DNA from: a candidate division WOR-3 bacterium
GTDB taxonomy: Bacteria > Hydrothermota > Hydrothermia > LBFQ01
Assembly: GCA_027002825.1 (NCBI GenBank)
Contig: JALWZG010000053.1
Location: 613 to 60,029, forward strand
DNA: 59,417 nt
Direction: 5' to 3'
Shown here: in pieces, positions 1-49,785 of the stretch
Layout: each line of letters begins with the position of its first letter
How positions within the stretch are numbered: position 1 is the first letter of the stretch
Translations under genes and position numbers: made by a program
The notes under the pieces: model-generated
The model's input: the letters and a program-made list of their open reading frames with translations, nothing else
Told to the model about the DNA's origin: nothing
Database searches by the model: none

Positions 1-1
1 G

Positions 2-382
2 CCCGTCGCCGTCAGCGGTGGGATCCTCGCCCTCCTCCTGACGGGTGAGAACTTCTCCGTCCCGGCCTCCATCGGCTTCATATCCCTCCTCGGCATAGCC
101 ACGGAGGTTAGCATAATCCTGATGGACTACGTGCGGAAACTGAAGGGGAAGGTCTCCCGTGCCACCGTCTTGAGGCTAAGGGCCGTCTCCATGACCGTCC
201 TCACGACTGCCCTGGGGCTGATGCCCCTGGTGTTCTCCACCGGGCCGGGTAGCGAAGTCCAGAGACCCCTCGCCATAGTCGTCCTCGGAGGCCTCACCAC
301 CCTTATCCTCTCCACCCTCTTCGTGATGCCCGCCCTCTACGGTGTGTTTGCCGGGAGGTGGAGTCTGAAACGGGAGGGGTAG
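2..382 (+). CDS. RND-family efflux pump inner-membrane subunit (CzcA/CusA/AcrB-like), C-terminal fragment; 5' end lies outside the window
   Basis: The frame is open from the window edge. The translation PVAVSGGILALLLTGENFSVPASIGFISLLGIATEV...LGLMPLVFSTGPGSEVQRPLAIVVLGGLTT looks like the last TM bundle of RND pumps. Confidence 0.8.
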   Translation, partial: PVAVSGGILALLLTGENFSVPASIGFISLLGIATEVSIILMDYVRKLKGKVSRATVLRLRAVSMTVLTTALGLMPLVFSTGPGSEVQRPLAIVVLGGLTTLILSTLFVMPALYGVFAGRWSLKREG

Positions 383-624
383 TCCACTATTAGTGGTGCT
401 ATGTAGTGATGCAACCGCCTTCCACCGTTCCGGCTGGCGGCGGGGTGGAGGGTGGGGGCTATAACGGGAAGTTATAATACTGTTATCGTGGAATTAAGGA
501 GGATGGGATCCGAGGGACCACAGGCGGCCTGAAGGAGCGTAGTTGCCCGTGAATATTGAGGGTGTAAAAGTGTATCAGAACGGAGGTTATAATGCGTTTG
601 TGTAGATGTTAAGGCAGGGGGTTG

Positions 625-810
625 TTATACTTTTATACCGTCCTGCCTTAATAAGACCTCATAAATCCGACGGTATTTCCTAAACTCCTTCAGCCAGTTG
701 TAAACCGTTTGCCGGCTTACCCCAAAAATATAGGCAATTTCCTTCACAGATACTCCCCTACTCCAAAGGAGAACCGCCTTCTTTACCTTCTCCTTCACCT
801 TCATCTGCAC
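625..810 (-). CDS. small helix-turn-helix protein (transposase/resolvase-type HTH)
   Basis: 61-aa ORF with the HTH motif VSVKEIAYIFGVSRQTVYNWLKEF. Its first 53 nt overlap the 3' end of the upstream ORF in another frame. Confidence 0.5.
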   Translation of the reverse strand: MQMKVKEKVKKAVLLWSRGVSVKEIAYIFGVSRQTVYNWLKEFRKYRRIYEVLLRQDGIKV

Positions 811-1522
811 CCTCCGGGTTTACCTTAACCACCTTCACCCCCTCTATATCGGGAACGGTTATATACTCCTCCAAACGCTTGGGTATCACGAGATAAAGCT
901 CATAGCGGTCTACTTCAAATCCCAGCCCCTTGATATACTCTACGGTGTTCCGAAACTTCTCCCTTATATCCTCTTCTCCGCCTTCAAACACAAGACCCTT
1001 GGCCTCCACTATGCGGGCTACGGTCTGGCCGTTCTCCTCGTAGATATAAACGACGTCGGCGTACTTCTGTGAGGTGTCAAGGTCGGGCTTTAAGACGGCC
1101 CTAAGGCCCTTCGGCTTTACCGCACTGTTGGATATGAGGTGTAGTTCTCTGTGCCACAGCTCGCTTCTCATTAGCCCCTTTATCTCAGCGATGTCCCTTC
1201 CTATGGTGAGCAGTATCTGGGCGATAATACGAAGGTCAGGATTCTCAATACGGTCTATGAGTTTCTCAACTTCCGGATTCACGTTGGGATTATAAGGCTG
1301 TAAGTCTTCGGGGTTGGACTTTGTGGCGTCGGCGATTGCGAGGAAGGTAATGCGTTTTGCTCCGGCACGTCTTAAGGCTCGGATTACCTTTCTCATAGTG
1401 CGGCCGGTGTGGATTACGTCGTCTATCACGAGGATGCGGAGGCCACGCACAACCGGTTCGGCGTACTCGTTGCCGTTCCGCAGGACTGAGCCATAAGCTA
1501 TGCCAAGGGCGTCGGCTACCAT
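758..1522 (-). CDS. two-domain protein: minimal phosphoribosyltransferase PRPP-loop region plus C-terminal PD-(D/E)xK-like (restriction-endonuclease-fold) region
   Basis: LRILVIDDVIHTGRTMRKVIRALRRAG is a type-I PRTase PRPP-binding loop, and only ~37 aa precede it. The C-terminal YADVVYIY..(13 aa)..RIVEAKG fits a D...ExK nuclease signature (inference). Confidence 0.55.
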   Translation of the reverse strand: MVADALGIAYGSVLRNGNEYAEPVVRGLRILVIDDVIHTGRTMRKVIRALRRAGAKRITFLAIADATKSNPEDLQPYNPNVNPEVEKLIDRIENPDLRIIAQILLTIGRDIAEIKGLMRSELWHRELHLISNSAVKPKGLRAVLKPDLDTSQKYADVVYIYEENGQTVARIVEAKGLVFEGGEEDIREKFRNTVEYIKGLGFEVDRYELYLVIPKRLEEYITVPDIEGVKVVKVNPEGADEGEGEGKEGGSPLE

Positions 1523-1539
1523 GCGGACTATAATCCTTA

Positions 1540-2001
1540 TTACGGCCGGGAGATGTGCTTTTCTACTATGCGGATGATCTTCTCAACCTTCTCAAAGCCG
1601 TCGTCTATGGCCTTTTTACTTTGGAGTTCCCTGTAGTAGGCACCGAGATGGAGGAGTTTATAGACCTCGTTGAAGAGTACCTTCAGCACATCCCTGTCCT
1701 TTCCTATCCTCATCACCCGTCCCAAATAGGAGTCGTACATATCCACCTTCTTGAGCCTGCGGTTCAGATCCTTCGCCGACAGCAATCCTTCCCACAAAAA
1801 TAGGGCCTTCAAGGCCTCAAGGGTGGCCAGATAGGCCTTGCCAGCGGCTCCGGAGATGTACTTTATGTCGGCGTATATGCCCGTCCTCCTGTCTATGCCG
1901 GCGAGTTTAATCTCCTCTCTGGCGTTCTGTAGGTACCTTTTGGCCAGTTCCAACCTCTCCTGTGGGGTTGTGGGTACCTTTAAAAGTGGCCATCTCCTCA
2001 T
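1540..2001 (-). CDS. helical ~150-aa protein of unknown function, copy A (resembles DUF5618 from memory, unverified)
   Basis: Strongly similar over its full length to the ORF at 2003-2455. Both end in the shared EKVEKIIRIVEKHISRP and contain the LHLGAYYRELQ motif. Confidence 0.7.
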   Translation of the reverse strand: MRRWPLLKVPTTPQERLELAKRYLQNAREEIKLAGIDRRTGIYADIKYISGAAGKAYLATLEALKALFLWEGLLSAKDLNRRLKKVDMYDSYLGRVMRIGKDRDVLKVLFNEVYKLLHLGAYYRELQSKKAIDDGFEKVEKIIRIVEKHISRP

Positions 2002-2002
2002 T

Positions 2003-2455
2003 CTACGGCCGGGAGATGTGCTTCTCCACGATGCGGATCATCTTCTCAACCTTCTCAAAACCGCTGTCTATGGCCTTTTTGTCCTGCAGCTCCCTGTAGT
2101 ATCCGCCTATGTGAAGCAGGCTATAAACGTTGTCAAAGAGACGTATAAGCACGTCCCTGTCCTTCCCTATCCTCATCACCCTCTTGAGAAGGGAGTCGTA
2201 CATCTCCACACGCTTCAGCTTACTCTTCACCTCCCTCTCATCCACCAACCCCTCCCACAGGAAGAGAGCCTTCAGGGCTTCAAGGGCCGCTAAGTAGGCC
2301 GTTCCGGAGGCTTCGGATACGTACTTCAGATCAACGTACTCTCCTACCCTCCTATCAACCCCGGCCTTTTTCAGGGTCTCTCTAGCGTTTTGCAGATACC
2401 TCTTGGCCAGTTGCAAACGCTCCTGCGGAGTTGTAGGCGTCCTTACAACTGCCAT
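2003..2455 (-). CDS. helical ~150-aa protein of unknown function, copy B (paralog of 1540-2001)
   Basis: Starts 1 nt upstream of copy A. Contains the same TPQERLxLAKRYLQNARE ... LH(L/I)GxYYRELQ ... EKVEKMIRIVEKHISRP architecture. Confidence 0.7.
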   Translation of the reverse strand: MAVVRTPTTPQERLQLAKRYLQNARETLKKAGVDRRVGEYVDLKYVSEASGTAYLAALEALKALFLWEGLVDEREVKSKLKRVEMYDSLLKRVMRIGKDRDVLIRLFDNVYSLLHIGGYYRELQDKKAIDSGFEKVEKMIRIVEKHISRP

Positions 2456-2464
2456 CTCCTCATT

Positions 2465-3649
2465 CTAAGGCCGGGATATGTGCCTCTCCACTATGCGGAT
2501 TATCCTCTCAACCTTCTCAAAGCCGCTGTCTACGGCCTTTTTGTCCAACAACCTCCTGTAGTACCCCCCAAGGTGGAGGATGTTATAAACGTCCCTCAAA
2601 AGCTTCAGCAACCTGCCCCTGTCCTTACCGAGAGGCAAACCCTTCAGGGCCTGTCTCAACCTCCCTATCTCCCTCGTCCTCTTCTCCATCAGAAGCGCCT
2701 TCCTTAAAGTTGTTAAACCCCAATTACCATCCTCCCACCACTTTACGCTGTACTTGTGCTTTTTGTAATCCCTCTCGCTCTCAGGTTTCCTGAAGACGAA
2801 CACGTGTTCGTGCGCTATGAGATAAAACTCATAATCCCTTCTCCTCCACCTCTCACGGGTAGCCTTCATGTTCCACTGGAGCTTTATTATATCCTCCTTC
2901 AAGATGAAGCCCACGTCCAAAAATATCTCCATCACCCTGAAGGCGAGGGGAACGTAGTGTTTGTGCTTTCTGGTATCACCTATGAGTATGGCGCAAACTT
3001 TGCCGGGTTTCAGCACCCTGTAAGACTCCTCCGCCACCTTCCTCATCTCTCGGAGATACTTATCAAAGGGCAAAGAGGACAGATCCCCGCCGAGCTCTTT
3101 ACGCCTCGTGTACGAGATTATGCTGGCGTAGGGTGGGTGCGTGGCTATGAGGTCAACGCTCCCATCCTCAACCTTGTCAAGGTTTCTGGCATCCCCCCAG
3201 TAGGTCTTTATCACGGGTTCTCTGTAATCCTTTGAAGATGAGCTGTACGAGAAGTTCAAGCGATCCCGTGCCACCATAACCGCGTCAAGGTTTATATCCA
3301 CACCTATCGCGTTCCTCTCCAAGAGCTTCGCCTCTACCAGTGTAGTCCCGCTACCCATCATCTGGTCAAGAACCCAGTCCCCCTTTTTGGTGTACTTCAG
3401 GATGAGATTCCTCGGAACATAAGGGGACCAGTTCCCCCTGTAGTTCCCTTTATGCGTTGCCCAACTGCCGCGCTCTGGAAAACTCCATACGGTTGTGCGC
3501 TCCGGCGTGTAGTCCTCAGGACCGTAGGATTTTATATTCCAACTCCCCTGAAGTTTTACACGGGAGTTTCCCACAACCACTTCCGCATGCTCTTTAATGA
3601 ACTCCAAATAGTCCTCATGGGTGATCTCCTGCATCTTTCTGTAGTTCAC
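2465..3649 (-). CDS. DNA N6-adenine/N4-cytosine methyltransferase (PF01555-like with motif I before the DPPY-type motif), C-terminally fused to the second half of the copy A/B module
   Basis: Motifs seen: WSFPERGSWATHKGNYRGNWSPYVPRNLI, VLDQMMGSGTTLVEA (AdoMet motif I) and DLIATHPPYASI (motif IV). The last ~60 aa, GKDRGRLLKLLRDVYNILHLGGYYRRLLDKKAVDSGFEKVERIIRIVERHISRP, are homologous to copies A and B. The GTG start lies 15 nt after tRNA-Ala. Confidence 0.8.
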   Translation of the reverse strand: MNYRKMQEITHEDYLEFIKEHAEVVVGNSRVKLQGSWNIKSYGPEDYTPERTTVWSFPERGSWATHKGNYRGNWSPYVPRNLILKYTKKGDWVLDQMMGSGTTLVEAKLLERNAIGVDINLDAVMVARDRLNFSYSSSSKDYREPVIKTYWGDARNLDKVEDGSVDLIATHPPYASIISYTRRKELGGDLSSLPFDKYLREMRKVAEESYRVLKPGKVCAILIGDTRKHKHYVPLAFRVMEIFLDVGFILKEDIIKLQWNMKATRERWRRRDYEFYLIAHEHVFVFRKPESERDYKKHKYSVKWWEDGNWGLTTLRKALLMEKRTREIGRLRQALKGLPLGKDRGRLLKLLRDVYNILHLGGYYRRLLDKKAVDSGFEKVERIIRIVERHISRP

Positions 3650-3664
3650 CCAAATTTCCCTTAA

Positions 3665-3737
3665 TGGAGCGGAGGGGAGTCGAACCCCCGACCCCCTGGT
3701 TGCAAACCAGGTGCTCTCCCACCTGAGCTACCGCCCC
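3665..3737 (-). tRNA. tRNA-Ala (anticodon UGC)
   Basis: The reverse complement reads GGGGCGGTAGCTCAG...CCTGGTTTGCAACCAGG...GGTTCGACTCCCCTCCGCTCCA. A cloverleaf fits, a G3:U70 pair is present, and no CCA is encoded. Confidence 0.92.
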
Positions 3738-3772
3738 AAAGGGTTAAAATTCTAAAGCCGGAAGGCGGACGG

Positions 3773-5944
3773 GTGGTTATCGCTACCCTTTCCGAAGTAA
3801 AATTCCCACTCGTGAAAAGACTGTTGATAGAGATCGGATGTGAGGAGTTGCCCGCCCTTGTTCAGGAATCCGCCGCGAGGCATCTGATGGAGGTTCTGCG
3901 GGATGAACTGAAAGAGAGGGGTTTTGAAACCGGAGACGGCAGGAGTTTCGCAACCCCCCGAAGAATAGCGACCGTACTGGAGGTTTCCCCGTTCTCCAAA
4001 ATCCTTGAGGATCTGAAACTCGGACCGCCCCTGAAAATCGCCTACGATGCCGAGGGTAGACCCACCAAAGCCCTCCTCAAGTTCCTTGAGAGGTGGGGAT
4101 TGGGGCCTGAGGACGTCGTAGAGGTAAAGGGAGAAAAGGGGCAGTACGTAGGGGTCAGGGTGAAAAGAGGCGGAGAGTTTGTCGGTGATGTCCTCGGAGA
4201 CATCCTTGAAAAATACGTAAAAGGGGTTCCGCTTCCGAAGAGGATGCGGTGGGACGATTCGGGTTTGACGTTTATAAGGCCGATAAGGTGGCTGGTGGCG
4301 ATGTTGGAGGAGGAGGTCTTACCCGTCAGGTTGGGGAAGATTGTGGCCGACCGGATAACCTACACGGCGAGATTCCCCACAGCGGAGAGGGTGGAGATAC
4401 CCTCCGCCGGCGACTACGAAACCCTTCTTGAGGAACGCGGTGTGATACCCGACTTTTCAAAGAGACTCTCCCACGTGCGCTCGCAGGTTGAGAGGTTTTT
4501 CCCCGTAAACCCGGAGGATTACGAGCTGTACGAGACGGACGTAAACTCCCTCCTTTACGAGATCACCGGTCTGGTAGAAAAGGGGTACGCGGTTTACGGC
4601 AACTACAACAGGGAGTTTTTGAAAGAGCTCTATCCGGAGGTGATAACCGCCGCCATGGTGTTCCACCAGAGATACGTGCCGCACATAGAAAACTCCCAGC
4701 TCAAAGCGGGGTTCGTTGCGTTTTCCAACAACCCGAAGGGTCTTACCCTCCACAAAAGGGGCTACGAAAACGTCCTACGGGCGAGGTTGAACGATGCCCT
4801 CTTCTACAAGAGGGAGGATTTGAAGCGGGACCTCGCCTTTTACGTTGAAAACCTGAAGAGCATCTCCTGGATAAGGGGACTCGGCACGCTGTACGATAGG
4901 ATGTTGAAGGTCAAACGGCTCTCCCTTTCAATGCCGCTTCCGGAAGGCGTCGATCGGGACGTTTTGGAGTTCGTGGCCACCCATTACCTCTTTGATACGG
5001 CCACGTCCATGATAAGGGACGGAAAGGAGTTCACCAAGCTTGAGGGCAGAATAGGCTACTACTACGCGCGGGAAATCCTGACAAGGAAGTGGGGGGACGA
5101 GGAAAAGGCCGAAAGGTACGCCTTGGGCATATACGAGGCGAGGCTACCTAAGGGGAAAAAGTTTCCCACAACCTTGGAGGGTTTGATCGTAGCCGTGGCG
5201 GACGCCCTCACGACGGTGGACGGTCTCTTGAGCATAGACTACAAGTGGTCATCCTCCAGGGACCCCCTGGGTATAAGGATGCAGATACGCCGTTTCGTCT
5301 CCCTCCTGATGTACCCCGTATCGGGGCGGATACTCGGCAGAAGACCCCTGCACGATTTCCTGAGACTTACGGAAACCTACGGAGAAAAGGAGGAGGTTTG
5401 GTATGCCATGATAGAGGAGAGTTTGACCGCCTCCCTCGCCTGGGTCCTGTCCGTAGTCCAGCCCGATTTCTATCCCCGCAACCCTTCCACGATACTCTTC
5501 ACCTATGACGGTAAAAACCTCTTCCTCTCGGCCGTTAAAGCGCGGGCCTATGAGAACGTGATAGTGGGTGAGAACGAGGAGAAGTTCGCCACCATACTCA
5601 AGAGGCTCAGGCGGATCTTCACCGCAAAACCCAAAAAGTTCCTGAGGGAGGATGATCCCCAAAGGGTCTTGGCCTACGAAAAGGCGCTTGAAGAGAGCGT
5701 GAACCGTATAGAAGGCGAACATTTGAGCCGCATCAGGGGAATATCACCGGAGGGGGAGTCCCCCAGGACCATCTTGAAGGTGTTTGAGGATTACCTGAAA
5801 CAGATCCTAAACCTCTACGGGGTTCTGGACAGGTTCTTCGCGGAGGTTCCCGTGATGGTTCAGGATGAGAGGGTTAGGGAGAGGAGGATGGCCCTCCTGC
5901 GGAGGGCGTTGGACCTAATAGACGAAATACTTCCCCGGAGGTAG
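3773..5944 (+). CDS. glyS: glycine--tRNA ligase beta subunit
   Basis: N-terminal KRLLIEIGCEELPA and full-length GlyS-like architecture (723 aa). An in-frame GTG at 3812 gives the more typical N-terminus. Confidence 0.9.
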   Translation: MVIATLSEVKFPLVKRLLIEIGCEELPALVQESAARHLMEVLRDELKERGFETGDGRSFATPRRIATVLEVSPFSKILEDLKLGPPLKIAYDAEGRPTKALLKFLERWGLGPEDVVEVKGEKGQYVGVRVKRGGEFVGDVLGDILEKYVKGVPLPKRMRWDDSGLTFIRPIRWLVAMLEEEVLPVRLGKIVADRITYTARFPTAERVEIPSAGDYETLLEERGVIPDFSKRLSHVRSQVERFFPVNPEDYELYETDVNSLLYEITGLVEKGYAVYGNYNREFLKELYPEVITAAMVFHQRYVPHIENSQLKAGFVAFSNNPKGLTLHKRGYENVLRARLNDALFYKREDLKRDLAFYVENLKSISWIRGLGTLYDRMLKVKRLSLSMPLPEGVDRDVLEFVATHYLFDTATSMIRDGKEFTKLEGRIGYYYAREILTRKWGDEEKAERYALGIYEARLPKGKKFPTTLEGLIVAVADALTTVDGLLSIDYKWSSSRDPLGIRMQIRRFVSLLMYPVSGRILGRRPLHDFLRLTETYGEKEEVWYAMIEESLTASLAWVLSVVQPDFYPRNPSTILFTYDGKNLFLSAVKARAYENVIVGENEEKFATILKRLRRIFTAKPKKFLREDDPQRVLAYEKALEESVNRIEGEHLSRIRGISPEGESPRTILKVFEDYLKQILNLYGVLDRFFAEVPVMVQDERVRERRMALLRRALDLIDEILPRR

Positions 5945-7760: not shown

Positions 7761-8734
7761 ACCCCGGAGAGTTTCCCCTTAAGGGTTTTTATCCTGTCAA
7801 TCCTGTAAGGGTCTTCCCCGTACTCAACCGACAACCAGTAGCTGACGAAATCCCCAAACCACACCAGGTACAACATCTGTTCCAGCTTGCTCTCTCCCCT
7901 TGCCCGAACGTTTCTTGACCCCAAGACGTAATCCCTGAGTATCTCCTCCGTCAAGTCCATCCTCAGGCTGACCCTCGGATGGTCGTAATCCGTCCTCAGG
8001 AAGACTATCCAAAACTTCGTATCCAAGAACTCCGGATGGTCAAACCCCTCTATTTCGTTGTGGTTGTGTTCCGGGAAGGGCATGGCAAACGCGGCCGCGT
8101 TGGCGTTCTCGTTTATCTGATTCTTCCACCTGAGCGCAACGGAGAACACGGAAGAGTCGGCGTATATCAAGGGCACCCTCCTGTAAATCTCGGAGGCCGT
8201 CTCGTAGGTCGGAGAGTCCATGCCGTCAAGCTCGGGTTGAAACCTCGCGATGCTCCGGGCTGCTCTCTCAAACTCGGCGTAATCCTCCGCGCCGGCTATT
8301 CCGGACAAACGGGCCCCATAAACCAAGGCCTTTAAGAGGTATCCGAAGGCCTCCCTCGGGTGATAGCCTTGAGGAACCTTTAGAACGGCGTATCCGTCTC
8401 TTGCGGCCATTTCACCCAGCTTACCACCCGTGGTTATGACAAAGCCGCGCATCCCGCGGTCCACCGCCTGAGAGTAGGCGGAGAGGGTTTCCTCCGTGTT
8501 GCCGGAATAGCTTATGGCAACGAAGAAATCGTCCCCGGAGAGGAAGGGGGGGAGGTCGTATCCCCTAACCACCCTCACGTCTTTGCCCGTCCAGTCGTAG
8601 AAAAAGTCGGCCGCGGCGGCTGAGCCACCCATCCCGGCTATCGCTATCCTTCCACCGGAGTACTCCGGTACCTCACCCTCAACCTCCGGTTGCCAGAGCA
8701 ACATATCGGGAAATCTCCTGATGTTCTCAAGCAT
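7757..8734 (-). CDS. bifunctional phosphoglucose/phosphomannose isomerase (SIS domain)
   Basis: Motifs IAIAGMGGSAAAADF, AISYSGNTEETL and C-terminal NQINENAN...HNEIEG are typical of the PGI/PMI family. Confidence 0.8.
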   Translation of the reverse strand: MLENIRRFPDMLLWQPEVEGEVPEYSGGRIAIAGMGGSAAAADFFYDWTGKDVRVVRGYDLPPFLSGDDFFVAISYSGNTEETLSAYSQAVDRGMRGFVITTGGKLGEMAARDGYAVLKVPQGYHPREAFGYLLKALVYGARLSGIAGAEDYAEFERAARSIARFQPELDGMDSPTYETASEIYRRVPLIYADSSVFSVALRWKNQINENANAAAFAMPFPEHNHNEIEGFDHPEFLDTKFWIVFLRTDYDHPRVSLRMDLTEEILRDYVLGSRNVRARGESKLEQMLYLVWFGDFVSYWLSVEYGEDPYRIDRIKTLKGKLSGV

Positions 8735-10386: not shown

Positions 10387-12279
10387 ATGGACAAAAATTA
10401 CACTGCAGAGGCCATAAAGGTCCTAAAGGGACTTGAAGGTGTGCGCAAACGCCCCGCGATGTACATAGGGGACACCGGACGCAGGGGATTCCACCACCTC
10501 TTACTTGAGATACTTGACAACGCCGTGGATGAGGCCCTCGCCGGCTACGCCAAGAACATAACCGTGACACTTTACCCGGACGGCTCGGTATCCGTTGAGG
10601 ATGACGGAAGGGGAATACCCACGGGACCGCATCCGGAGCTGGGGATAAGCGGTGTTGAGGTGGTCTTTACGGTACTGCACGCCGGAGGGAAGTTTGACAG
10701 GAAGGCCTATCAGGTGTCCGGAGGTCTCCACGGTGTAGGGGCCTCCGTAGTGAACGCCCTCTCCGAGTGGACTGAAGTTGTCGTGAAAAGGGATGGAAGG
10801 GTTTGGAGGGCGACCTTTAGCAGGGGGGAGACAGTTGAGCCTTTGACGGCTGTGGGGGAGACGGAGGGGACCGGAACCTTTGTGAGGTTTAAACCGGATC
10901 CGGAGATCTTCGGAAAGCAGAAATGGGACAGGGACTTCATAAGAAACCGCTTGAGGGAACTCTCCTACCTCGTCTCAGGCGTCAGGTTCGTCTTCAGGGA
11001 CGAGGCCACAGGCGAAGAGGAGGTTTACGAGAGCGGAGGTCTGGTGGACTTCCTCCTGTACGTGGATGAGGGGAACCAGCCCCTCTTCTCCCCGCCCTTC
11101 TACGTCAAGAAGCGGGAGGGGGACTACGAACTGGAGCTGGCCCTGCACTACACGGAGGGCGATGACGAGAGGATACTGTCCTTCGTCAACACCATACAGA
11201 CGACGGAGGGAGGCACCCACGTCACGGGGCTTAGGGCGGCCCTCACCAAGACCATAAACGAGTACGCCCAGGCCCACAACATGCTCAAAGATCTCAAGGG
11301 TAAAACCCTGTCCGGTGAGGACGTGAGGGAGGGGCTTACGGCCATACTCCACGTAAAGCTCCCGGAGCCGCAGTTTGAGGGCCAGACCAAGACCAAACTC
11401 GGAACGGCGGCGGCCCGCACCTTCGTTGAGGGCATCGTGGCCAACGAGTTCAGGAGGTTCCTTGAGGAGAACCCCAAGGCCGCCCAGGCCATAATCCAGA
11501 AGGCCATCCTCGCCGCCAAGTCAAGGGCGGCCGCCCGCAAGGCGAGGGAACTGGTCAAACGTAAGAGCTTCCTTGAGTCGGACACCCTCCCCGGAAAGCT
11601 GGCCGACTGCATAACCAAAAAACCCGAGGAGGCCGAACTCTTCATAGTTGAGGGGGACTCCGCAGGTGGATCGGCCAAACAGGCCCGCGACAGGAGGTTT
11701 CAGGCCATACTGCCCATAAGGGGGAAGATAAGGAACGTTGAGAAGGCGGAGACGGTCAAGGTCCTGTCCAACGCCGAGGTGAGGGCCATAATCACTGCCA
11801 TAGGCTGCGGGATAAAGGACGAGTGCGACCCCTCCAAGTCCCGCTACGGCAAGATAATCATAATGAGCGACGCCGACGTAGACGGCGCCCACATCCGGAC
11901 CCTCCTCCTCACCCTCTTCTGGCGGTTTATGAAGCCCCTTGTGGAGCAGGGGTACATATACATCGCCATGCCGCCCCTCTACCGCGTCCAGAAGGGCAAG
12001 CAGGTCCGGTATCTCTACTCCGACGAGGAGCTGGAGGAGCTGCTGAAGGAATGGGGGAACAACGTCGTGATACAGAGGTACAAGGGACTGGGTGAGATGA
12101 ACCCGGAGCAGCTCTGGGAGACCACCATGGATCCCGAAACCCGTATACTGAAAAAGGTCACGGTGGAAGACGCAGTAGAGGCCGACCACCTCTTCTCCGT
12201 CCTGATGGGTAAGGTCGTAGAGCGCCGCAGGGAGTTCATAGAGAGGAACGCCCGGTTCGTCAAGAACCTGGACGTGTAG
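10387..12279 (+). CDS. gyrB: DNA gyrase subunit B
   Basis: Motifs LEGVRKRPAMYIGDT, HHLLLEILDNAVDEA, EGDSAGGSAKQARDR, PIRGKIRNVEKA and QRYKGLGEMNPEQLWETTM. At 630 aa there is no room for an intein. Confidence 0.97.
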   Translation: MDKNYTAEAIKVLKGLEGVRKRPAMYIGDTGRRGFHHLLLEILDNAVDEALAGYAKNITVTLYPDGSVSVEDDGRGIPTGPHPELGISGVEVVFTVLHAGGKFDRKAYQVSGGLHGVGASVVNALSEWTEVVVKRDGRVWRATFSRGETVEPLTAVGETEGTGTFVRFKPDPEIFGKQKWDRDFIRNRLRELSYLVSGVRFVFRDEATGEEEVYESGGLVDFLLYVDEGNQPLFSPPFYVKKREGDYELELALHYTEGDDERILSFVNTIQTTEGGTHVTGLRAALTKTINEYAQAHNMLKDLKGKTLSGEDVREGLTAILHVKLPEPQFEGQTKTKLGTAAARTFVEGIVANEFRRFLEENPKAAQAIIQKAILAAKSRAAARKARELVKRKSFLESDTLPGKLADCITKKPEEAELFIVEGDSAGGSAKQARDRRFQAILPIRGKIRNVEKAETVKVLSNAEVRAIITAIGCGIKDECDPSKSRYGKIIIMSDADVDGAHIRTLLLTLFWRFMKPLVEQGYIYIAMPPLYRVQKGKQVRYLYSDEELEELLKEWGNNVVIQRYKGLGEMNPEQLWETTMDPETRILKKVTVEDAVEADHLFSVLMGKVVERRREFIERNARFVKNLDV

Positions 12280-20236: not shown

Positions 20237-21076
20237 ATGGCGAGGAGGCTTTTTTACAGGCGATTTGGCAAATCCTATGTGGTTTTGGGTTTGGAGTCCG
20301 TTCGCCCTTTGGTGGTTTTTGGCCTAACCCTCGCGGCCTTTGTGGGTGGGGGGGTGTACATGTGGGTGGTGGGTGGTGCGAGGGTCTACGAAAACCTCAG
20401 GATAAGGGAGGAGATGGAGGCCGTCAAGGCGGAGAACAGAAACCTCAGGCAAGAGATATCCGCCCTGATGGAGAGGTACGATTCACTACACGCGAGACAA
20501 AAGGCCCTTGCGGGGTATCTCGGTGTACCGATTTACGGGGCGACGTTGAAAGACGTGGCCATAGGAGGTAGTCTGGAGGACGCGGACTTGGACCGCCTGA
20601 AGGCGTACGCCGAATTTGAAGGCTCTCTGGTGTCCATGCTGGAGGAGAAGGCGAAAAACCGGATGGAAGCGCTCAGACACCTACCCAGCATACCTCCGGT
20701 CAGAGGTGTGATGGTGTCGGGTTTCGGCGTCAGAAAGGATCCCATAACGGGGGGTCTAAGGTTTCACAAGGGCATAGACTTTGACGCCCCCAAGGGAACA
20801 CCCGTCGTGGCGACGGCCGACGGCGTGGTTGAAAAGGCGGGATGGAGTAAAGGTGGATACGGAATTCAGGTGATAGTGGACCACGGTAACGGCATAAAGA
20901 CCAGGTACGCACATCTGTTCAAGGCCTTGGTAAAAGAGGGGGACAGTGTGAAAAGGGGTGAGGTTATAGGCCTTGTGGGGAATACGGGTAGATCCGTAGG
21001 GGATCACCTGCACTACGAGGTCCTCCTACACGGAACGGCCGTGAACCCCGCCAAGTTCTTACTGGTGGATTTTTAG
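20237..21076 (+). CDS. M23-family metallopeptidase
   Basis: Motifs HKGIDFDAPKGTPVVATADGVV and GNTGRSVGDHLHYEV, with an N-terminal TM helix and coiled coil. Confidence 0.85.
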   Translation: MARRLFYRRFGKSYVVLGLESVRPLVVFGLTLAAFVGGGVYMWVVGGARVYENLRIREEMEAVKAENRNLRQEISALMERYDSLHARQKALAGYLGVPIYGATLKDVAIGGSLEDADLDRLKAYAEFEGSLVSMLEEKAKNRMEALRHLPSIPPVRGVMVSGFGVRKDPITGGLRFHKGIDFDAPKGTPVVATADGVVEKAGWSKGGYGIQVIVDHGNGIKTRYAHLFKALVKEGDSVKRGEVIGLVGNTGRSVGDHLHYEVLLHGTAVNPAKFLLVDF

Positions 21077-49259: not shown

Positions 49260-49273
49260 AATATCCGTCTCAG

Positions 49274-49345
49274 GCGGGCGTAGCTCAGGGGTAGAGCACC
49301 AGCTTCCCAAGCTGGGGGTCGCGGGTTCGAATCCCGTCGCCCGCT
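49274..49345 (+). tRNA. tRNA-Gly (anticodon CCC)
   Basis: Sequence GCGGGCGTAGCTCAGGGGTAGAGCACCAGCTTCCCAAGCTGG...GGTTCGAATCCCGTCGCCCGCT. No CCA is encoded. Confidence 0.92.
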
Positions 49346-49353
49346 TTTCCGTT

Positions 49354-49785
49354 GTGGTGGTGTTGATAACGGCATGTGGTAGGAAAAAGGAGGAAACCCC
49401 GCAGAAGGCCTGGAAGCTGTACAGGTCATCACGGATACGCTATCTGAAAAAGGTGGCTGACAGGGTGGGGGTGAGGTTTCTCATACTGAGCGCGGAGTAC
49501 GGTCTGGTGGACTCCGAGGAGGTGATAGCTCCTTACGAGAGGGTTATGGACGAGAAGAGGTGTGATGCCCTAATACATCAGATGGTCGAGAAGCTCTCCC
49601 GGCTGGGCGTCAGTAAGGTTGTCTTCTACAGGGGTGGGGCGAGAAAATCCTATTTTCTGTGCCTTCAGCGGGCATGTGGAATTTTAAACCTGCCTTTGGT
49701 GTCGCTCGGCTATGCCAACATGGGCGGCATACGCGAGGTGGAGGAGGTGTTGAAAAGGGCGCATGATACCGTTTTTCGTGGTTGA
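49354..49785 (+). CDS. DUF6884-like protein (unknown function)
   Basis: Pattern LITACGRKKE...AWKLYRSS...FLILSAEYGLVDSEEVIAPYE matches what I recall of DUF6884 (N-terminal C..K, SA.YGL, PY). The ORF-track start (49234) runs through the tRNA. The first in-frame GTG is at 49354, 8 nt after the tRNA. Confidence 0.55.
   Translation: MVVLITACGRKKEETPQKAWKLYRSSRIRYLKKVADRVGVRFLILSAEYGLVDSEEVIAPYERVMDEKRCDALIHQMVEKLSRLGVSKVVFYRGGARKSYFLCLQRACGILNLPLVSLGYANMGGIREVEEVLKRAHDTVFRG

What the first reader, a model, noticed from the sequence alone, without database searches (positions are those of the whole stretch)
383..3664. tRNA-Ala-flanked accessory island: orphan permuted MTase, triplicated helical module, PRTase/nuclease-like protein and HTH (candidate uncharacterised R-M-like or defence locus)
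Five co-directional, tightly packed minus-strand ORFs (gaps of 9, 1 and 17 nt, plus one 53-nt overlap) fill the space between the end of an RND pump gene and tRNA-Ala. The first gene, the MTase, starts only 15 nt after the tRNA 3' end, which is the classic position of integrated elements. By hand count the region is more AT-rich than the core: 661-720 has 27/60 G+C, against 39/60 for 10441-10500 in gyrB. None of the five products is housekeeping. The MTase has no recognisable restriction partner. The only nuclease-like candidate is the D...ExK C-terminal region of the PRTase-loop protein. PRTase domains are known effector or toxin modules in some anti-phage systems (retron-associated PRTases, ShosT), but I do not recognise this gene combination as any described system. 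No integrase or clear att repeat was found, so mobility is unproven.
Basis: partly seen in the sequence, partly recalled or inferred. Interest (0 to 1): 0.75.

Follow-up and report, generated by a model that had tools for sequence, protein, structure and literature searches.

The report
Decayed accessory-gene patchwork beside tRNA-Ala
The 3.3-kb low-GC stretch next to tRNA-Ala is not one new defence system but three unrelated accessory modules joined by deletions: a DNA methylase that lost its restriction enzyme, a tandem array of HEPN-like genes, and a truncated rare nuclease-like gene with a small DNA-binding partner.

Summary
Five co-directional minus-strand ORFs, with exactly the stated gaps, fill the space between an RND-pump gene end and tRNA-Ala. 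This is the lowest-GC 3.3-kb stretch of the window (51.1% against 56.5%).

The reading as a single R-M-like or defence system is not supported. Each part occurs elsewhere without the others.

1. **Methylase.** The core (aa 1-308) is intact. It belongs to a very large family (70-80% identity) whose usual downstream partner is a DpnII-family (GATC) endonuclease. Here only about 30 nt of that R gene remain. A small deletion removed the methylase stop codon, so the ORF runs into the 3' 55% of a DUF5618 copy. No homolog seen has this fusion.

2. **Helical module.** It is DUF5618, a HEPN-superfamily fold (model pLDDT 91.7; best PDB match 3mfn). Tandem arrays of 2-5 copies recur in WOR-3 genomes in unrelated contexts.

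3. **PRTase/nuclease gene.** It is 5'-truncated relative to a 431-aa form. The family has 11 proteins among 1.84 billion. With its overlapping HTH gene it forms a sharply bounded 915-bp module that occurs alone in another genome. The nuclease fold is plausible but only weakly supported.

No integrase, att repeat, MNT, RT or DprA-like gene was found. Interest is modest.

The parts
3664..3738 (-). tRNA-Ala (TGC). It marks the right edge of the block and lies 14 nt from the MTase start.
   Evidence: ARAGORN; Rfam tRNA, 65.7 bits.
2726..3649 (-). Complete DNA methyltransferase core (aa 1-308). It has a permuted N6_N4_Mtase layout, with motif I GSGTT at aa 99 and motif IV HPPY at aa 171. It belongs to a family whose usual partner is a DpnII-type REase.
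   Evidence: PF01555 E=9e-30. PADLOC MTase_II E=3e-79. It is 76-80% identical to hundreds of 300-320 aa proteins that end at ...KWW plus 0-6 residues. All 116 columns that are at least 97% conserved in 120 homologs are kept.
2701..2731 (-). Scar of a deleted DpnII-family restriction gene: ATGGTAA | TTGGGGTTTAACAACTTTAAGGAA. This reads as R codons 1-2, then an apparent 11-nt deletion that removed the MTase stop codon, then LGFNNFKE in the R frame. In the MTase frame it is read as DGNWGLTTLRK.
   Evidence: Compared with 29 M-R junctions, whose R N-termini read MV(K/R)FKELGF.(N/S)FEEY. The match to L055 is 19 of 24 nt. The peptide pattern occurs only twice in 118,830 six-frame residues. No other DpnII similarity exists in the window.
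2465..2700 (-). 3' part (about 55%) of a DUF5618 gene copy, fused in frame to the MTase (aa ~317-394). It keeps the H-x3-YYR signature and the family's own stop codon.
   Evidence: PF18498 positions 62-121 of 121, E=4e-6. DNA repeat D2 is 85% identical to the DUFb 3' end. The fragment is 66-76% identical in protein to DUF5618 copies in L025 and L027. dN/dS is 0.33-0.54 against 0.18 for the full copies.
2003..2455 (-). DUF5618 copy b (150 aa), HEPN-superfamily four-helix bundle.
   Evidence: PF18498 E=2e-22, PaREP1 E=2e-6. AF2 model pLDDT 91.7. Foldseek matches: 3mfn E=2.7e-5 (TM 0.73/0.86), then 2q00 and 2hsb.
1540..2001 (-). DUF5618 copy a (153 aa), 72% identical to copy b.
   Evidence: PF18498 E=1e-19; tblastn; dN/dS 0.18 between a and b.
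1286..1532 (-). 5'-truncated PRTase remnant, consisting of the PRPP-binding loop and its flanks (aa 1-79 of ORF 758-1522). Homology to the 431-aa form starts at that protein's residue 166, 8 nt after the DUF5618a stop codon.
   Evidence: PF00156 positions 81-133 of 158 only. Alignment A1. tblastn with P0003. DNA homology to L021 starts at window 1532. AF2 pLDDT is below 50 for residues 1-43 and 57-83.
758..1285 (-). C-terminal domain (aa 80-254) of a tiny orphan family. It is predicted to have a PD-(D/E)xK restriction-endonuclease-like fold (D156, E173-x-K175), preceded by a variable helical linker.
   Evidence: Invariant D156, E173 and K175 in 8 homologs. Predicted alpha-beta-beta-beta-alpha-beta topology, pLDDT 60-86. 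Foldseek top matches are FokI, N.BspD6I, R.BspD6I, HamA and BamHI, but with E=0.03-0.4 only. Only 11 proteins match in 1.84 billion.
625..810 (-). Small HTH protein (61 aa) that overlaps the previous gene by 53 nt. It is the conserved partner of the PRTase/nuclease gene.
   Evidence: HTH_23 E=6e-11, HTH_28 E=8e-11. It is 84-86% identical and in the same overlapping arrangement in L021 and L030/L031. dN/dS is 0.05-0.09. DNA homology to L021 ends at window 618.
383..624 (.). Non-coding spacer between the HTH gene and the RND gene end. No recognisable element was found in it.
   Evidence: No Rfam match; no tRNA-derived repeat; not shared with L021.
1..382 (+). 3' end of an RND (AcrB-type) transporter gene; left edge of the block.
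   Evidence: ACR_tran positions 897-1020 of 1021, E=2e-30.

Best explanation
The block is a composite of three independent accessory modules, welded together by deletions. It lies in a variable spot between an RND-pump gene and tRNA-Ala in a thermophilic WOR-3-type bacterium.

**Module 1 — relic of a DpnII/MboI-type Type II R-M operon (M then R, overlapping).**
- Shown: the methylase is complete. The R gene is gone except for about 30 nt. A small deletion removed the methylase stop codon, so the ORF reads through the scar into a 5'-truncated DUF5618 copy.
- Inferred: the enzyme still methylates GATC as a solitary methylase, and the HEPN-derived tail is a by-product rather than a functional domain.

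**Module 2 — tandem array of DUF5618 genes.**
- Shown: they have a HEPN-superfamily fold. Such arrays are a lineage-specific expansion in this clade and sit in unrelated contexts.
- Shown: the canonical Rx4-6H motif is replaced by an invariant H115...Y119-Y120-R121-x5-K127.
- Inferred: they are RNA-binding or RNA-cleaving stress or defence proteins that act on their own, like archaeal PaREP1 arrays.

**Module 3 — a 915-bp two-gene unit: a PRTase-loop plus restriction-endonuclease-like protein, and an overlapping small HTH protein.**
- Shown: the unit has sharp boundaries. It occurs alone elsewhere and is far less diverged between two genomes than their GlyS. The window copy lacks the first ~165 codons of the 431-aa form.
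- Inferred: the full-length form is a toxin-like nuclease or nucleotide-sensing protein controlled by the HTH partner. The window copy is a partly disabled remnant that may keep a nuclease or DNA-binding activity.

The likely ancestral order was tRNA-Ala, M, R, DUF5618 array, then full-length PRTase-nuclease and HTH.
For: **MTase family and its partner**
- 7,989 relatives have E<=1e-10. The best 120 are 287-328 aa, cover 69-78% of the query, and none has PF18498.
- In WOR-3 genomes the 76%-identical homolog overlaps a DpnII-family gene by 14 nt.
- Of 63 metagenome loci with at least 900 bp downstream, 26 have DpnII directly downstream, 6 have it elsewhere in the locus, and none has DUF5618.
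- Homologs end at KWW plus 0-6 residues. The window continues past that point through an R-gene scar.
- The core keeps all 116 highly conserved columns.

**DUF5618**
- Pfam, a confident model and Foldseek matches to 3mfn, 2q00 and 2hsb agree on a HEPN fold.
- Arrays of 2-5 copies occur in L025, L026, L027, L028, L029 and L036 with different neighbours.
- Decayed partial copies sit at array edges in L027/L028.

**PRTase/nuclease module**
- It has 8 word-indexed relatives and 11 profile-search relatives.
- Homology to the 431-aa form starts at four different residues: 147 (L021), 166 (window), 192 (L022) and 243 (L023, L118).
- DNA homology to L021 runs only from window 1532 to 618.
- Between the window and the MAG that carries both L021 and L001, module identity is 86-92% with dS 0.43-0.80. 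GlyS identity between the same two genomes is 63% with dS 1.57.
- GC3 of these two genes is 0.57-0.60, against 0.68-0.73 for the MTase, the DUF5618 genes and the core genes.

**Negative results**
- No integrase and no att repeat were found, and PADLOC reports no complete defence system.
- No viral relatives were found.
Against: - The five ORFs are tightly packed and co-directional, so they are probably co-transcribed today and could have acquired a joint function.
- The PRTase remnant and the HTH gene show strong purifying selection (dN/dS 0.05-0.09). That fits poorly with a dead relic, although it may reflect constraint before recent truncations.
- The DUF5618 fragment stayed in frame with the MTase and its dN/dS (0.33-0.54) is below 1.
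- HEPN-T (PaREP1) arrays next to REase-fold genes are a described pattern in archaea (PMC3710099), and Uma2 genes flank DUF5618 arrays in L029 and L036. A functional link between the array and the nuclease-like gene is therefore not excluded.
- The R-gene scar is short. Its HMM score alone is not significant, and MAFFT prefers a different small indel.
- GATC specificity is inferred only from the partner family of homologs.
- The available relatives are distant (60-63% GlyS identity), so the synteny test is weak.
Confidence: 0.7

Rival explanations
1. One reading: the five genes form one uncharacterised R-M-like or defence operon. The methylase protects self DNA. The PRTase-loop/PD-(D/E)xK protein is the effector nuclease. 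The HEPN modules and the HTH protein act as accessory or regulatory parts.
For: The genes are tightly packed and co-directional. The stretch is low in GC. D...ExK is invariant and the fold matches are REase-like. HEPN domains are often linked to R-M systems (PMC3710099). PADLOC gives weak ShosT and mad1/mad2 matches.
Against: - No co-occurrence was seen. None of 80 MTase loci carries DUF5618 or the nuclease-like gene.
- The nuclease-like gene occurs without any MTase within 5-8 kb (or to the contig end) in L021, L022, L023, L030 and L118. A restriction enzyme lacking its methylase would not be tolerated.
- The MTase family's own partner is DpnII-type, and a scar of it remains.
- Both junctions are truncations.
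- The mad1 and ShosT matches cover only the HTH motif and the PRPP loop, far below NCBIfam cut-offs (18.6 bits against a cut-off of 80).
Confidence: 0.07
2. The DUF5618 array and the adjacent REase-fold gene with its HTH partner form one functional unit: a bacterial counterpart of the archaeal 'PaREP1 in tandem plus REase' operons. The orphaned methylase is only a neighbour.
For: Anantharaman et al. 2013 describe PaREP1-type HEPN genes in tandem repeats or in operons with MNT and REase genes (PMC3710099). Uma2 (PD-(D/E)xK) genes flank DUF5618 arrays in L029 and L036. A PLD-family gene lies near the array in L027. In the window the array abuts the nuclease-like gene with only 17 nt between them.
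Against: The junction is a truncation of the nuclease gene's 5' part, not a conserved intergenic arrangement. The nuclease-like family never has DUF5618 next to it in the other five contexts. It shows no profile similarity to Uma2. L025 and L037 have no nuclease gene next to the array. Uma2 genes are multi-copy in many genomes, so adjacency may be chance (my own knowledge, not tested here).
Confidence: 0.12
3. The unusual features (the MTase-HEPN fusion and the truncated PRTase gene) are artefacts: mis-assembly across repeats, or chimerism of a metagenome-assembled contig.
For: The sequence comes from an uncultured lineage. The locus contains a 462-nt tandem repeat. A near-identical copy of part of the PRTase/nuclease gene exists in another context, L022.
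Against: The repeat copies are only 75-85% identical, too diverged to collapse. The MTase/scar/DUF5618 junction does not lie at a repeat boundary, and all reading frames remain open. The database lists the DUFb product under two window-derived contig lengths, 60,029 and 14,387.
Confidence: 0.05

Closest known systems
DpnII/MboI-type Type II restriction-modification operons, and solitary methylases left after loss of R
   Same: The methylase core is 76-80% identical to methylases that overlap a PF04556 (DpnII) gene at their 3' end. The window keeps the M-R overlap sequence ATGGTA and a short piece of R.
   Different: No restriction gene is present. The methylase stop codon is lost and 85 extra residues are appended, most from a HEPN-type gene. 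That fusion was seen in none of the best 120 protein relatives or 80 metagenome loci. Target sequence and modified base were not tested; motif IV is HPPY.
HEPN-T / PaREP1 family tandem arrays (Anantharaman et al. 2013, PMC3710099), and DUF5618 (PF18498; structure 3mfn, Dfer_2879)
   Same: The proteins share a four-helix HEPN fold. The Pfam match clears the gathering score (80 and 71 bits against 33). Foldseek matches 3mfn and 2q00. The tandem paralog arrangement is as described for PaREP1. A His is conserved, but the canonical Rx4-6H is absent.
   Different: This is a bacterial (WOR-3) expansion rather than a crenarchaeal one. No MNT partner is present. One copy is truncated and fused to a methylase, whereas the 2013 survey reported HEPN fusions to nucleases, helicases and ATPases but not to methylases. 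No paper in the library mentions DUF5618.
ShosTA toxin-antitoxin defence (PRTase toxin ShosT plus antitoxin ShosA; PMC11961720, PMC12961424)
   Same: There is a PRPP-loop match to PADLOC ShosT (E=4e-8, 31 bits, aa 20-84). The layout is two genes with a small partner.
   Different: Only about 65 residues match. The N-terminal half of the PRTase fold is missing in the window copy. The partner is a 61-aa HTH protein. The C-terminal domain is REase-like, which is not a ShosT feature.
Type III-A retrons with PRTase-like effectors (PMC7736814, PMC12746101)
   Same: There is a weak PRTase_III-A match (E=0.02).
   Different: No reverse transcriptase domain is present among the five products, and Rfam finds no retron ncRNA.
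tRNA-targeted integrative genomic islands
   Same: The block sits directly 3' of a tRNA gene, has a low G+C content and carries accessory cargo.
   Different: There is no integrase or recombinase, and no direct repeat of the tRNA 3' end. The cargo consists of fragments of separate modules.

Membership tests
Type II restriction-modification system (DpnII/MboI type) | A DNA methyltransferase of the family that pairs with PF04556 endonucleases | tested here: met
   76% identity to the M gene of M-R pairs in L032-L035. All 116 highly conserved columns are kept.
Type II restriction-modification system (DpnII/MboI type) | A cognate restriction endonuclease gene | tested here: not met
   tblastn with a DpnII-family protein finds nothing in the window. 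Only a ~30-nt scar remains at 2701-2731. The nuclease-like domain of 758-1522 is unrelated to the alternative 187-189 aa partner ORFs.
Type II restriction-modification system (DpnII/MboI type) | Methylation of the GATC target | not testable with these tools
   This needs a methylome. GATC O/E in the window is 0.71, which is not decisive.
DUF5618 (PF18498) / HEPN superfamily | Profile match above the Pfam gathering score | tested here: met
   80.0 and 71.4 bits against a cut-off of 33 for the two full copies. The fused fragment scores 27.6 bits, below the cut-off.
DUF5618 (PF18498) / HEPN superfamily | Four-helix HEPN fold | tested here: met
   AF2 pLDDT 91.7. Foldseek: 3mfn E=2.7e-5, 2q00 E=9e-4, 2hsb probability 1.00.
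Catalytic HEPN RNases | Conserved Rx4-6H motif at the start of the last helix | tested here: not met
   In 39 family members the invariant residues are H115, Y119, Y120, R121 and K127, which gives R-x5-K. The C-terminal RIVEKH is not invariant.
HEPN-MNT toxin-antitoxin | An adjacent minimal nucleotidyltransferase gene | tested here: not met
   None of the five products has a nucleotidyltransferase domain. None of the DUF5618 array loci has one next to the array.
Type I phosphoribosyltransferases (PF00156), including ShosT-type and retron-type effectors | A complete PRTase fold: the N-terminal strands and helices as well as the PRPP loop | tested here: not met
   Only profile positions 81-133 of 158 match, starting at residue 21. 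Homology to the 431-aa relative starts at that protein's residue 166. AF2 gives low confidence for residues 1-43 and 57-83.
ShosTA | A ShosA (DprA-like) partner gene | tested here: not met
   PADLOC and Pfam scans of the five products show none.
Retron (type III-A) | A reverse transcriptase and an msr/msd ncRNA | tested here: not met
   No RT domain; no Rfam match other than the tRNA.
PD-(D/E)xK restriction-endonuclease-like superfamily (C-terminal domain of 758-1522) | An alpha-beta-beta-beta-alpha-beta core, with D at the start of strand 2 and (D/E)xK in strand 3 | tested here: inconclusive
   D156, E173 and K175 are invariant in 8 relatives, and the predicted topology fits. Foldseek matches are mostly REase-fold proteins, but none has E<=0.001. 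One member matches TnsA_N weakly, E=0.028. The more distant relative P0251 has R in place of K.
MADS (methylation-associated defence system) | MAD1 and MAD2 matches above the family cut-offs, with the other mad genes present | tested here: not met
   MAD1 scores 18.6 bits against a cut-off of 80. PADLOC mad1 and mad2 match only the HTH motif and the generic MTase region. No other mad genes are present.
tRNA-integrated genomic island | An integrase, and a direct repeat of the tRNA 3' end at the far boundary | tested here: not met
   No recombinase domain. The longest tRNA-derived match in 1-3663 is 9 nt.

The most novel reading that the evidence does not exclude
The 915-bp pair (PRPP-loop plus restriction-endonuclease-like protein, with an overlapping small HTH protein) is a new, clade-restricted selfish module. 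It could be a nucleotide-sensing nuclease toxin with an HTH antitoxin or regulator, or a nuclease-based mobile gene. It moves horizontally between WOR-3 lineages and lands in different intergenic sites. The truncated copies would still be active because the conserved PRPP-loop segment works as a sensor. Separately, the DUF5618 arrays could be a bacterial counterpart of archaeal PaREP1 arrays, with a defence role.
Probability: 0.17. Interest if true: 0.55.

Novelty: new member of a known kind. Interest (0 to 1): 0.28.

Why it matters
The main value is corrective. A tidy-looking, tRNA-flanked five-gene 'operon' turns out to be a mosaic of decayed modules, so it should not be catalogued as a candidate defence system.

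Three smaller points may interest specialists:

1. It is a clear example of how a solitary methylase arises. The R gene is deleted down to a ~30-nt scar, the stop codon is lost, and the ORF reads through into a neighbouring gene.
2. Tandem DUF5618 (HEPN-type) arrays appear to be a lineage-specific expansion in thermophilic WOR-3 bacteria. No paper in the searched library mentions this family.
3. A PRTase-nuclease-like family exists with only 11 members among 1.84 billion representative proteins. It looks horizontally mobile and repeatedly truncated.

None of these opens a long-standing question.

Tried and rejected
- **Synteny test for an 'empty site'.** Only four relatives (60-63% GlyS identity) were found. 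They share just glyS plus the next gene, with no tRNA-Ala or RND gene nearby, so the test is uninformative beyond showing the block is absent.
- **att-site search.** A search with the tRNA sequence found nothing of 10 nt or more.
- **Rfam scan and promoter/terminator scans of 1-4200.** Rfam found only the tRNA. Promoter-like and terminator-like counts did not exceed shuffled controls.
- **Is the nuclease-like domain the methylase's replacement partner?** It has no profile similarity to the 187-189 aa ORFs that follow some MTase homologs, and none to Uma2. Rejected.
- **PADLOC, NCBIfam and PHROGs for a known system.** The only matches are generic MTase, PRPP-loop and HTH hits.
- **Viral origin.** No relatives of the MTase, DUF5618 or the PRTase/nuclease gene were found in IMG/VR.
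- **Plasmid database, for a named close MTase homolog.** The best hit is 52% identical and unannotated.
- **Protein-HMM test of the R-gene scar.** On its own it gave non-significant scores because the remnant is only 8 residues. The case rests on position plus the 19/24-nt DNA match.
- **The C-terminal RIVEKH as a HEPN Rx4H motif.** Rejected, because it is not invariant in the family.

Full report
**Observation**

The window carries five minus-strand ORFs at 2465-3649, 2003-2455, 1540-2001, 758-1522 and 625-810. The gaps are 9, 1 and 17 nt, followed by a 53-nt overlap. tRNA-Ala(TGC) at 3664-3738 lies 14 nt from the first start codon. A further 242 nt of non-coding DNA precede the end of an AcrB-type transporter gene at 382. 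Region 383-3664 is 51.1% GC against 56.5% for the rest, lower than every one of 562 equally long sliding windows.

**Organism and synteny**

GlyS, encoded next to the tRNA, is at most 63% identical to proteins of candidate division WOR-3 MAGs from hydrothermal samples. In the four nearest genomes only glyS and the following gene are syntenic. None has a tRNA, the RND gene or any of the five genes upstream of glyS. The block is therefore not core, but the relatives are too distant to show an empty site.

**The methylase**

- Residues 1-308 form a permuted N6_N4_Mtase: motif I GSGTT at aa 99 and HPPY at aa 171. PADLOC calls it a Type II MTase (E=3e-79).
- The family is very large and conserved across bacteria and archaea of hot habitats. 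It has 7,989 relatives at E<=1e-10. The best 120 are 287-328 aa, cover 69-78% of the query, and none has a DUF5618 domain.
- All homologs end at '...KWW' plus 0-6 residues.
- In WOR-3 genomes the 76%-identical homolog overlaps by 14 nt a gene of the DpnII family, PF04556. By Pfam's description these enzymes cut unmethylated GATC; that statement is my own knowledge.
- Among 80 metagenome loci, 63 have at least 900 bp downstream. Of these, 26 carry DpnII directly downstream and 6 elsewhere in the locus. A further subset carries a conserved 187-189 aa ORF without any Pfam match. None carries DUF5618.
- The window has no DpnII similarity. At the position of the M-R overlap it reads ATGGTAA|TTGGGGTTTAACAACTTTAAGGAA. 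This corresponds to R codons 1-2, then an apparent 11-nt deletion that would have contained the methylase stop codon, then LGFNNFKE in the R frame. The 29 R N-termini read MV(K/R)FKELGF.(N/S)FEEY, and the match to L055 is 19 of 24 nt.
- The peptide pattern occurs twice in 118,830 six-frame residues, so finding it within 15 codons of the expected site has a chance of roughly 1e-4. This is my estimate. The HMM score alone is not significant, and MAFFT prefers a 4-nt indel instead.
- Beyond about 2700 the ORF continues in frame into the last ~55% of a DUF5618 copy and uses that gene's stop codon.
- The core keeps all 116 columns that are at least 97% conserved in 120 homologs, so the enzyme is probably active.
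- I conclude that this is an orphaned methylase of a DpnII-type R-M operon. The 'permuted MTase with a helical tail' is a deletion product.

**The triplicated helical module**

- It is a DNA tandem repeat of period 462-463 nt with 75-85% identity, and includes the short spacer.
- The two full copies match DUF5618 (80 and 71 bits against a cut-off of 33) and more weakly PaREP1 and HEPN.
- A model built on 39 sequences has pLDDT 91.7. Its best PDB matches are 3mfn (Dfer_2879; E=2.7e-5, TM 0.73/0.86), 2q00 (a Sulfolobus PaREP1-type protein) and 2hsb, followed by HEPN toxins.
- The family lacks the canonical Rx4-6H motif. Its invariant residues include H115, Y119, Y120, R121 and K127.
- 146 relatives were found, named where named as WOR-3, Hydrothermia, Caldipriscus or Thermotogae.
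- Arrays recur with about 12-nt spacers in quite different contexts: four and a half copies in L025, five in L027, two in L029 and three in L036. Decayed fragments sit at array edges.
- Tandem PaREP1 genes, sometimes next to REase-fold genes, were described for archaea by Anantharaman et al. 2013 (PMC3710099). No paper in the library mentions DUF5618.
- The fused fragment evolves under relaxed constraint: dN/dS 0.33-0.54, against 0.18 between the two full copies.

**The PRTase/nuclease gene and HTH**

- The Pribosyltran match covers only profile positions 81-133 of 158, starting at residue 21.
- Only 8 relatives exist in the word-indexed search of 5.8 billion proteins. An exhaustive profile search of 1.84 billion representatives with the C-terminal domain finds 11.
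- One relative, P0003, is 431 aa. Homology of the other copies to it starts at residue 147 (L021), 166 (window), 192 (L022) and 243 (L023, L118). These are four independent 5' truncations.
- In the window the homology starts 8 nt after the DUF5618a stop codon, just after a degenerate copy of the array spacer.
- The C-terminal domain has invariant D156, E173 and K175 on a predicted alpha-beta-beta-beta-alpha-beta core with pLDDT 60-86; the whole-protein mean is 57.7.
- Foldseek's top matches are almost all restriction-endonuclease folds (FokI, N.BspD6I and R.BspD6I, HamA, BamHI, SwaI, Cas4), but with E=0.03-0.4.
- One family member hits TnsA_N at E=0.028. A distant member has R in place of K. 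The nuclease fold is therefore plausible but not proven.
- The 61-aa HTH protein overlaps the gene in the same way in L021 and in L030/L031, at 84-86% identity.
- DNA homology between the window and L021 runs from 1532 to 618 only. That is a 915-bp unit with sharp ends, sitting in a different neighbourhood.
- Between these two genomes the unit has dS 0.43-0.80 and 86-92% protein identity, against dS 1.57 and 63% for GlyS. Its GC3 is 0.57-0.60, against about 0.70 for host genes. Both point to horizontal movement.
- L022 carries a copy whose flanks are ~99-100% identical in DNA to the window copy, but with a different central segment, different ends and no HTH gene.
- No MTase lies within 5-8 kb (or to the contig end) of any of these copies. 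This argues against a classical restriction enzyme.

**Known systems**

- PADLOC finds only the MTase. It also gives a 31-bit ShosT match on the PRPP loop and HTH-only matches to mad1 and CasR.
- NCBIfam MAD1 scores 18.6 bits against a cut-off of 80.
- No RT, MNT, DprA-like, integrase or recombinase domain is present. There is no att-like repeat and no RNA family besides the tRNA.
- No viral relatives were found.
- ShosT is a complete PRTase coupled to a pyrophosphatase (PMC11961720), and retron III-A effectors need an RT and an ncRNA (PMC7736814, PMC12746101). The window copy meets neither definition.

**Conclusion**

The best-supported account is a patchwork of three parts: an R-M relic, a clade-typical HEPN array, and a truncated, horizontally acquired nuclease-like/HTH pair. 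These are joined at two deletion junctions, at about 2700 and at 1532/1533.

What the locus most likely does now is the following. It methylates DNA, probably at GATC (inferred). It expresses two HEPN-type proteins of unknown target. It may also express a shortened nuclease-like protein with its HTH partner.

The main caveats are the strong purifying selection on the PRPP-loop remnant and the HTH gene (dN/dS 0.05-0.09), and the recurrent proximity of HEPN-T arrays to REase-fold genes. Both leave room for residual or joint function.

Interest is modest. The components belong to known kinds, and the apparent novelty of the combination comes from decay.

Noticed in passing
whole window 1-59417: Two palindromic tetranucleotides are strongly depleted: CTAG 3 observed against 78.8 expected (O/E 0.04), and TCGA 15 against 142.8 (0.11). 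GATC is only mildly low (0.71). The TCGA avoidance suggests TaqI-type restriction pressure in this lineage.
   Followed up: no
window 49357-49755 (+), next to tRNA-Gly(CCC) at 49273-49346: A DUF6884 gene lies directly after a tRNA. Its 55%-identical homolog is the immediate upstream neighbour of the PRTase/nuclease+HTH module in L021.
   Followed up: partly
L047:1154-1723, L050:1525-2088, L059:3917-4483, L064:1990-2553, L089:3919-4485: In a subset of MTase homolog loci the DpnII gene is replaced by a conserved 187-189 aa ORF that overlaps or abuts the MTase end and has no Pfam match. It may be an undescribed restriction-enzyme family for the same methylase.
   Followed up: partly
window 1150-1290; L021 about 8290-8400; L022 about 3520-3620: The linker between the PRPP-loop remnant and the nuclease-like domain is hypervariable. 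L021/P0002 has a 7-aa (21-nt) unit DIAEMKT repeated about four times, the window has one unit, and L022 has an unrelated coiled-coil-like segment. The flanks of the window and L022 copies are ~99-100% identical in DNA.
   Followed up: partly
L029:241-807; L036:119-694 and 2118-2693: Uma2-family (PD-(D/E)xK) genes flank DUF5618 arrays in two other contigs. A PLD-family gene lies near the array in L027.
   Followed up: partly
window 2462-2490 and 2000-2028 (- strand): The same promoter-like site (TGGAGA, 17 nt, TAGAAT) followed by GAGGAG recurs at each DUF5618 unit boundary, so each copy may carry its own start signals. The total count does not exceed shuffled controls.
   Followed up: no
L092:1921-2967, L093:1608-2654: Two MTase homolog loci have a shortened MTase (query aa 3-240) overlapped by a 348-aa ORF with a weak NucS_C / inactive-REase match. 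This is another rearranged variant of this R-M family.
   Followed up: no
L030:199-1293 and L021:9183-10346: A Peptidase_M23 gene lies next to the PRTase/nuclease+HTH module in both L021 (downstream) and L030. In L030 it is upstream and followed by a glucosaminidase-domain ORF. The window's M23 homolog is 20 kb away, at about 20640-21050.
   Followed up: no
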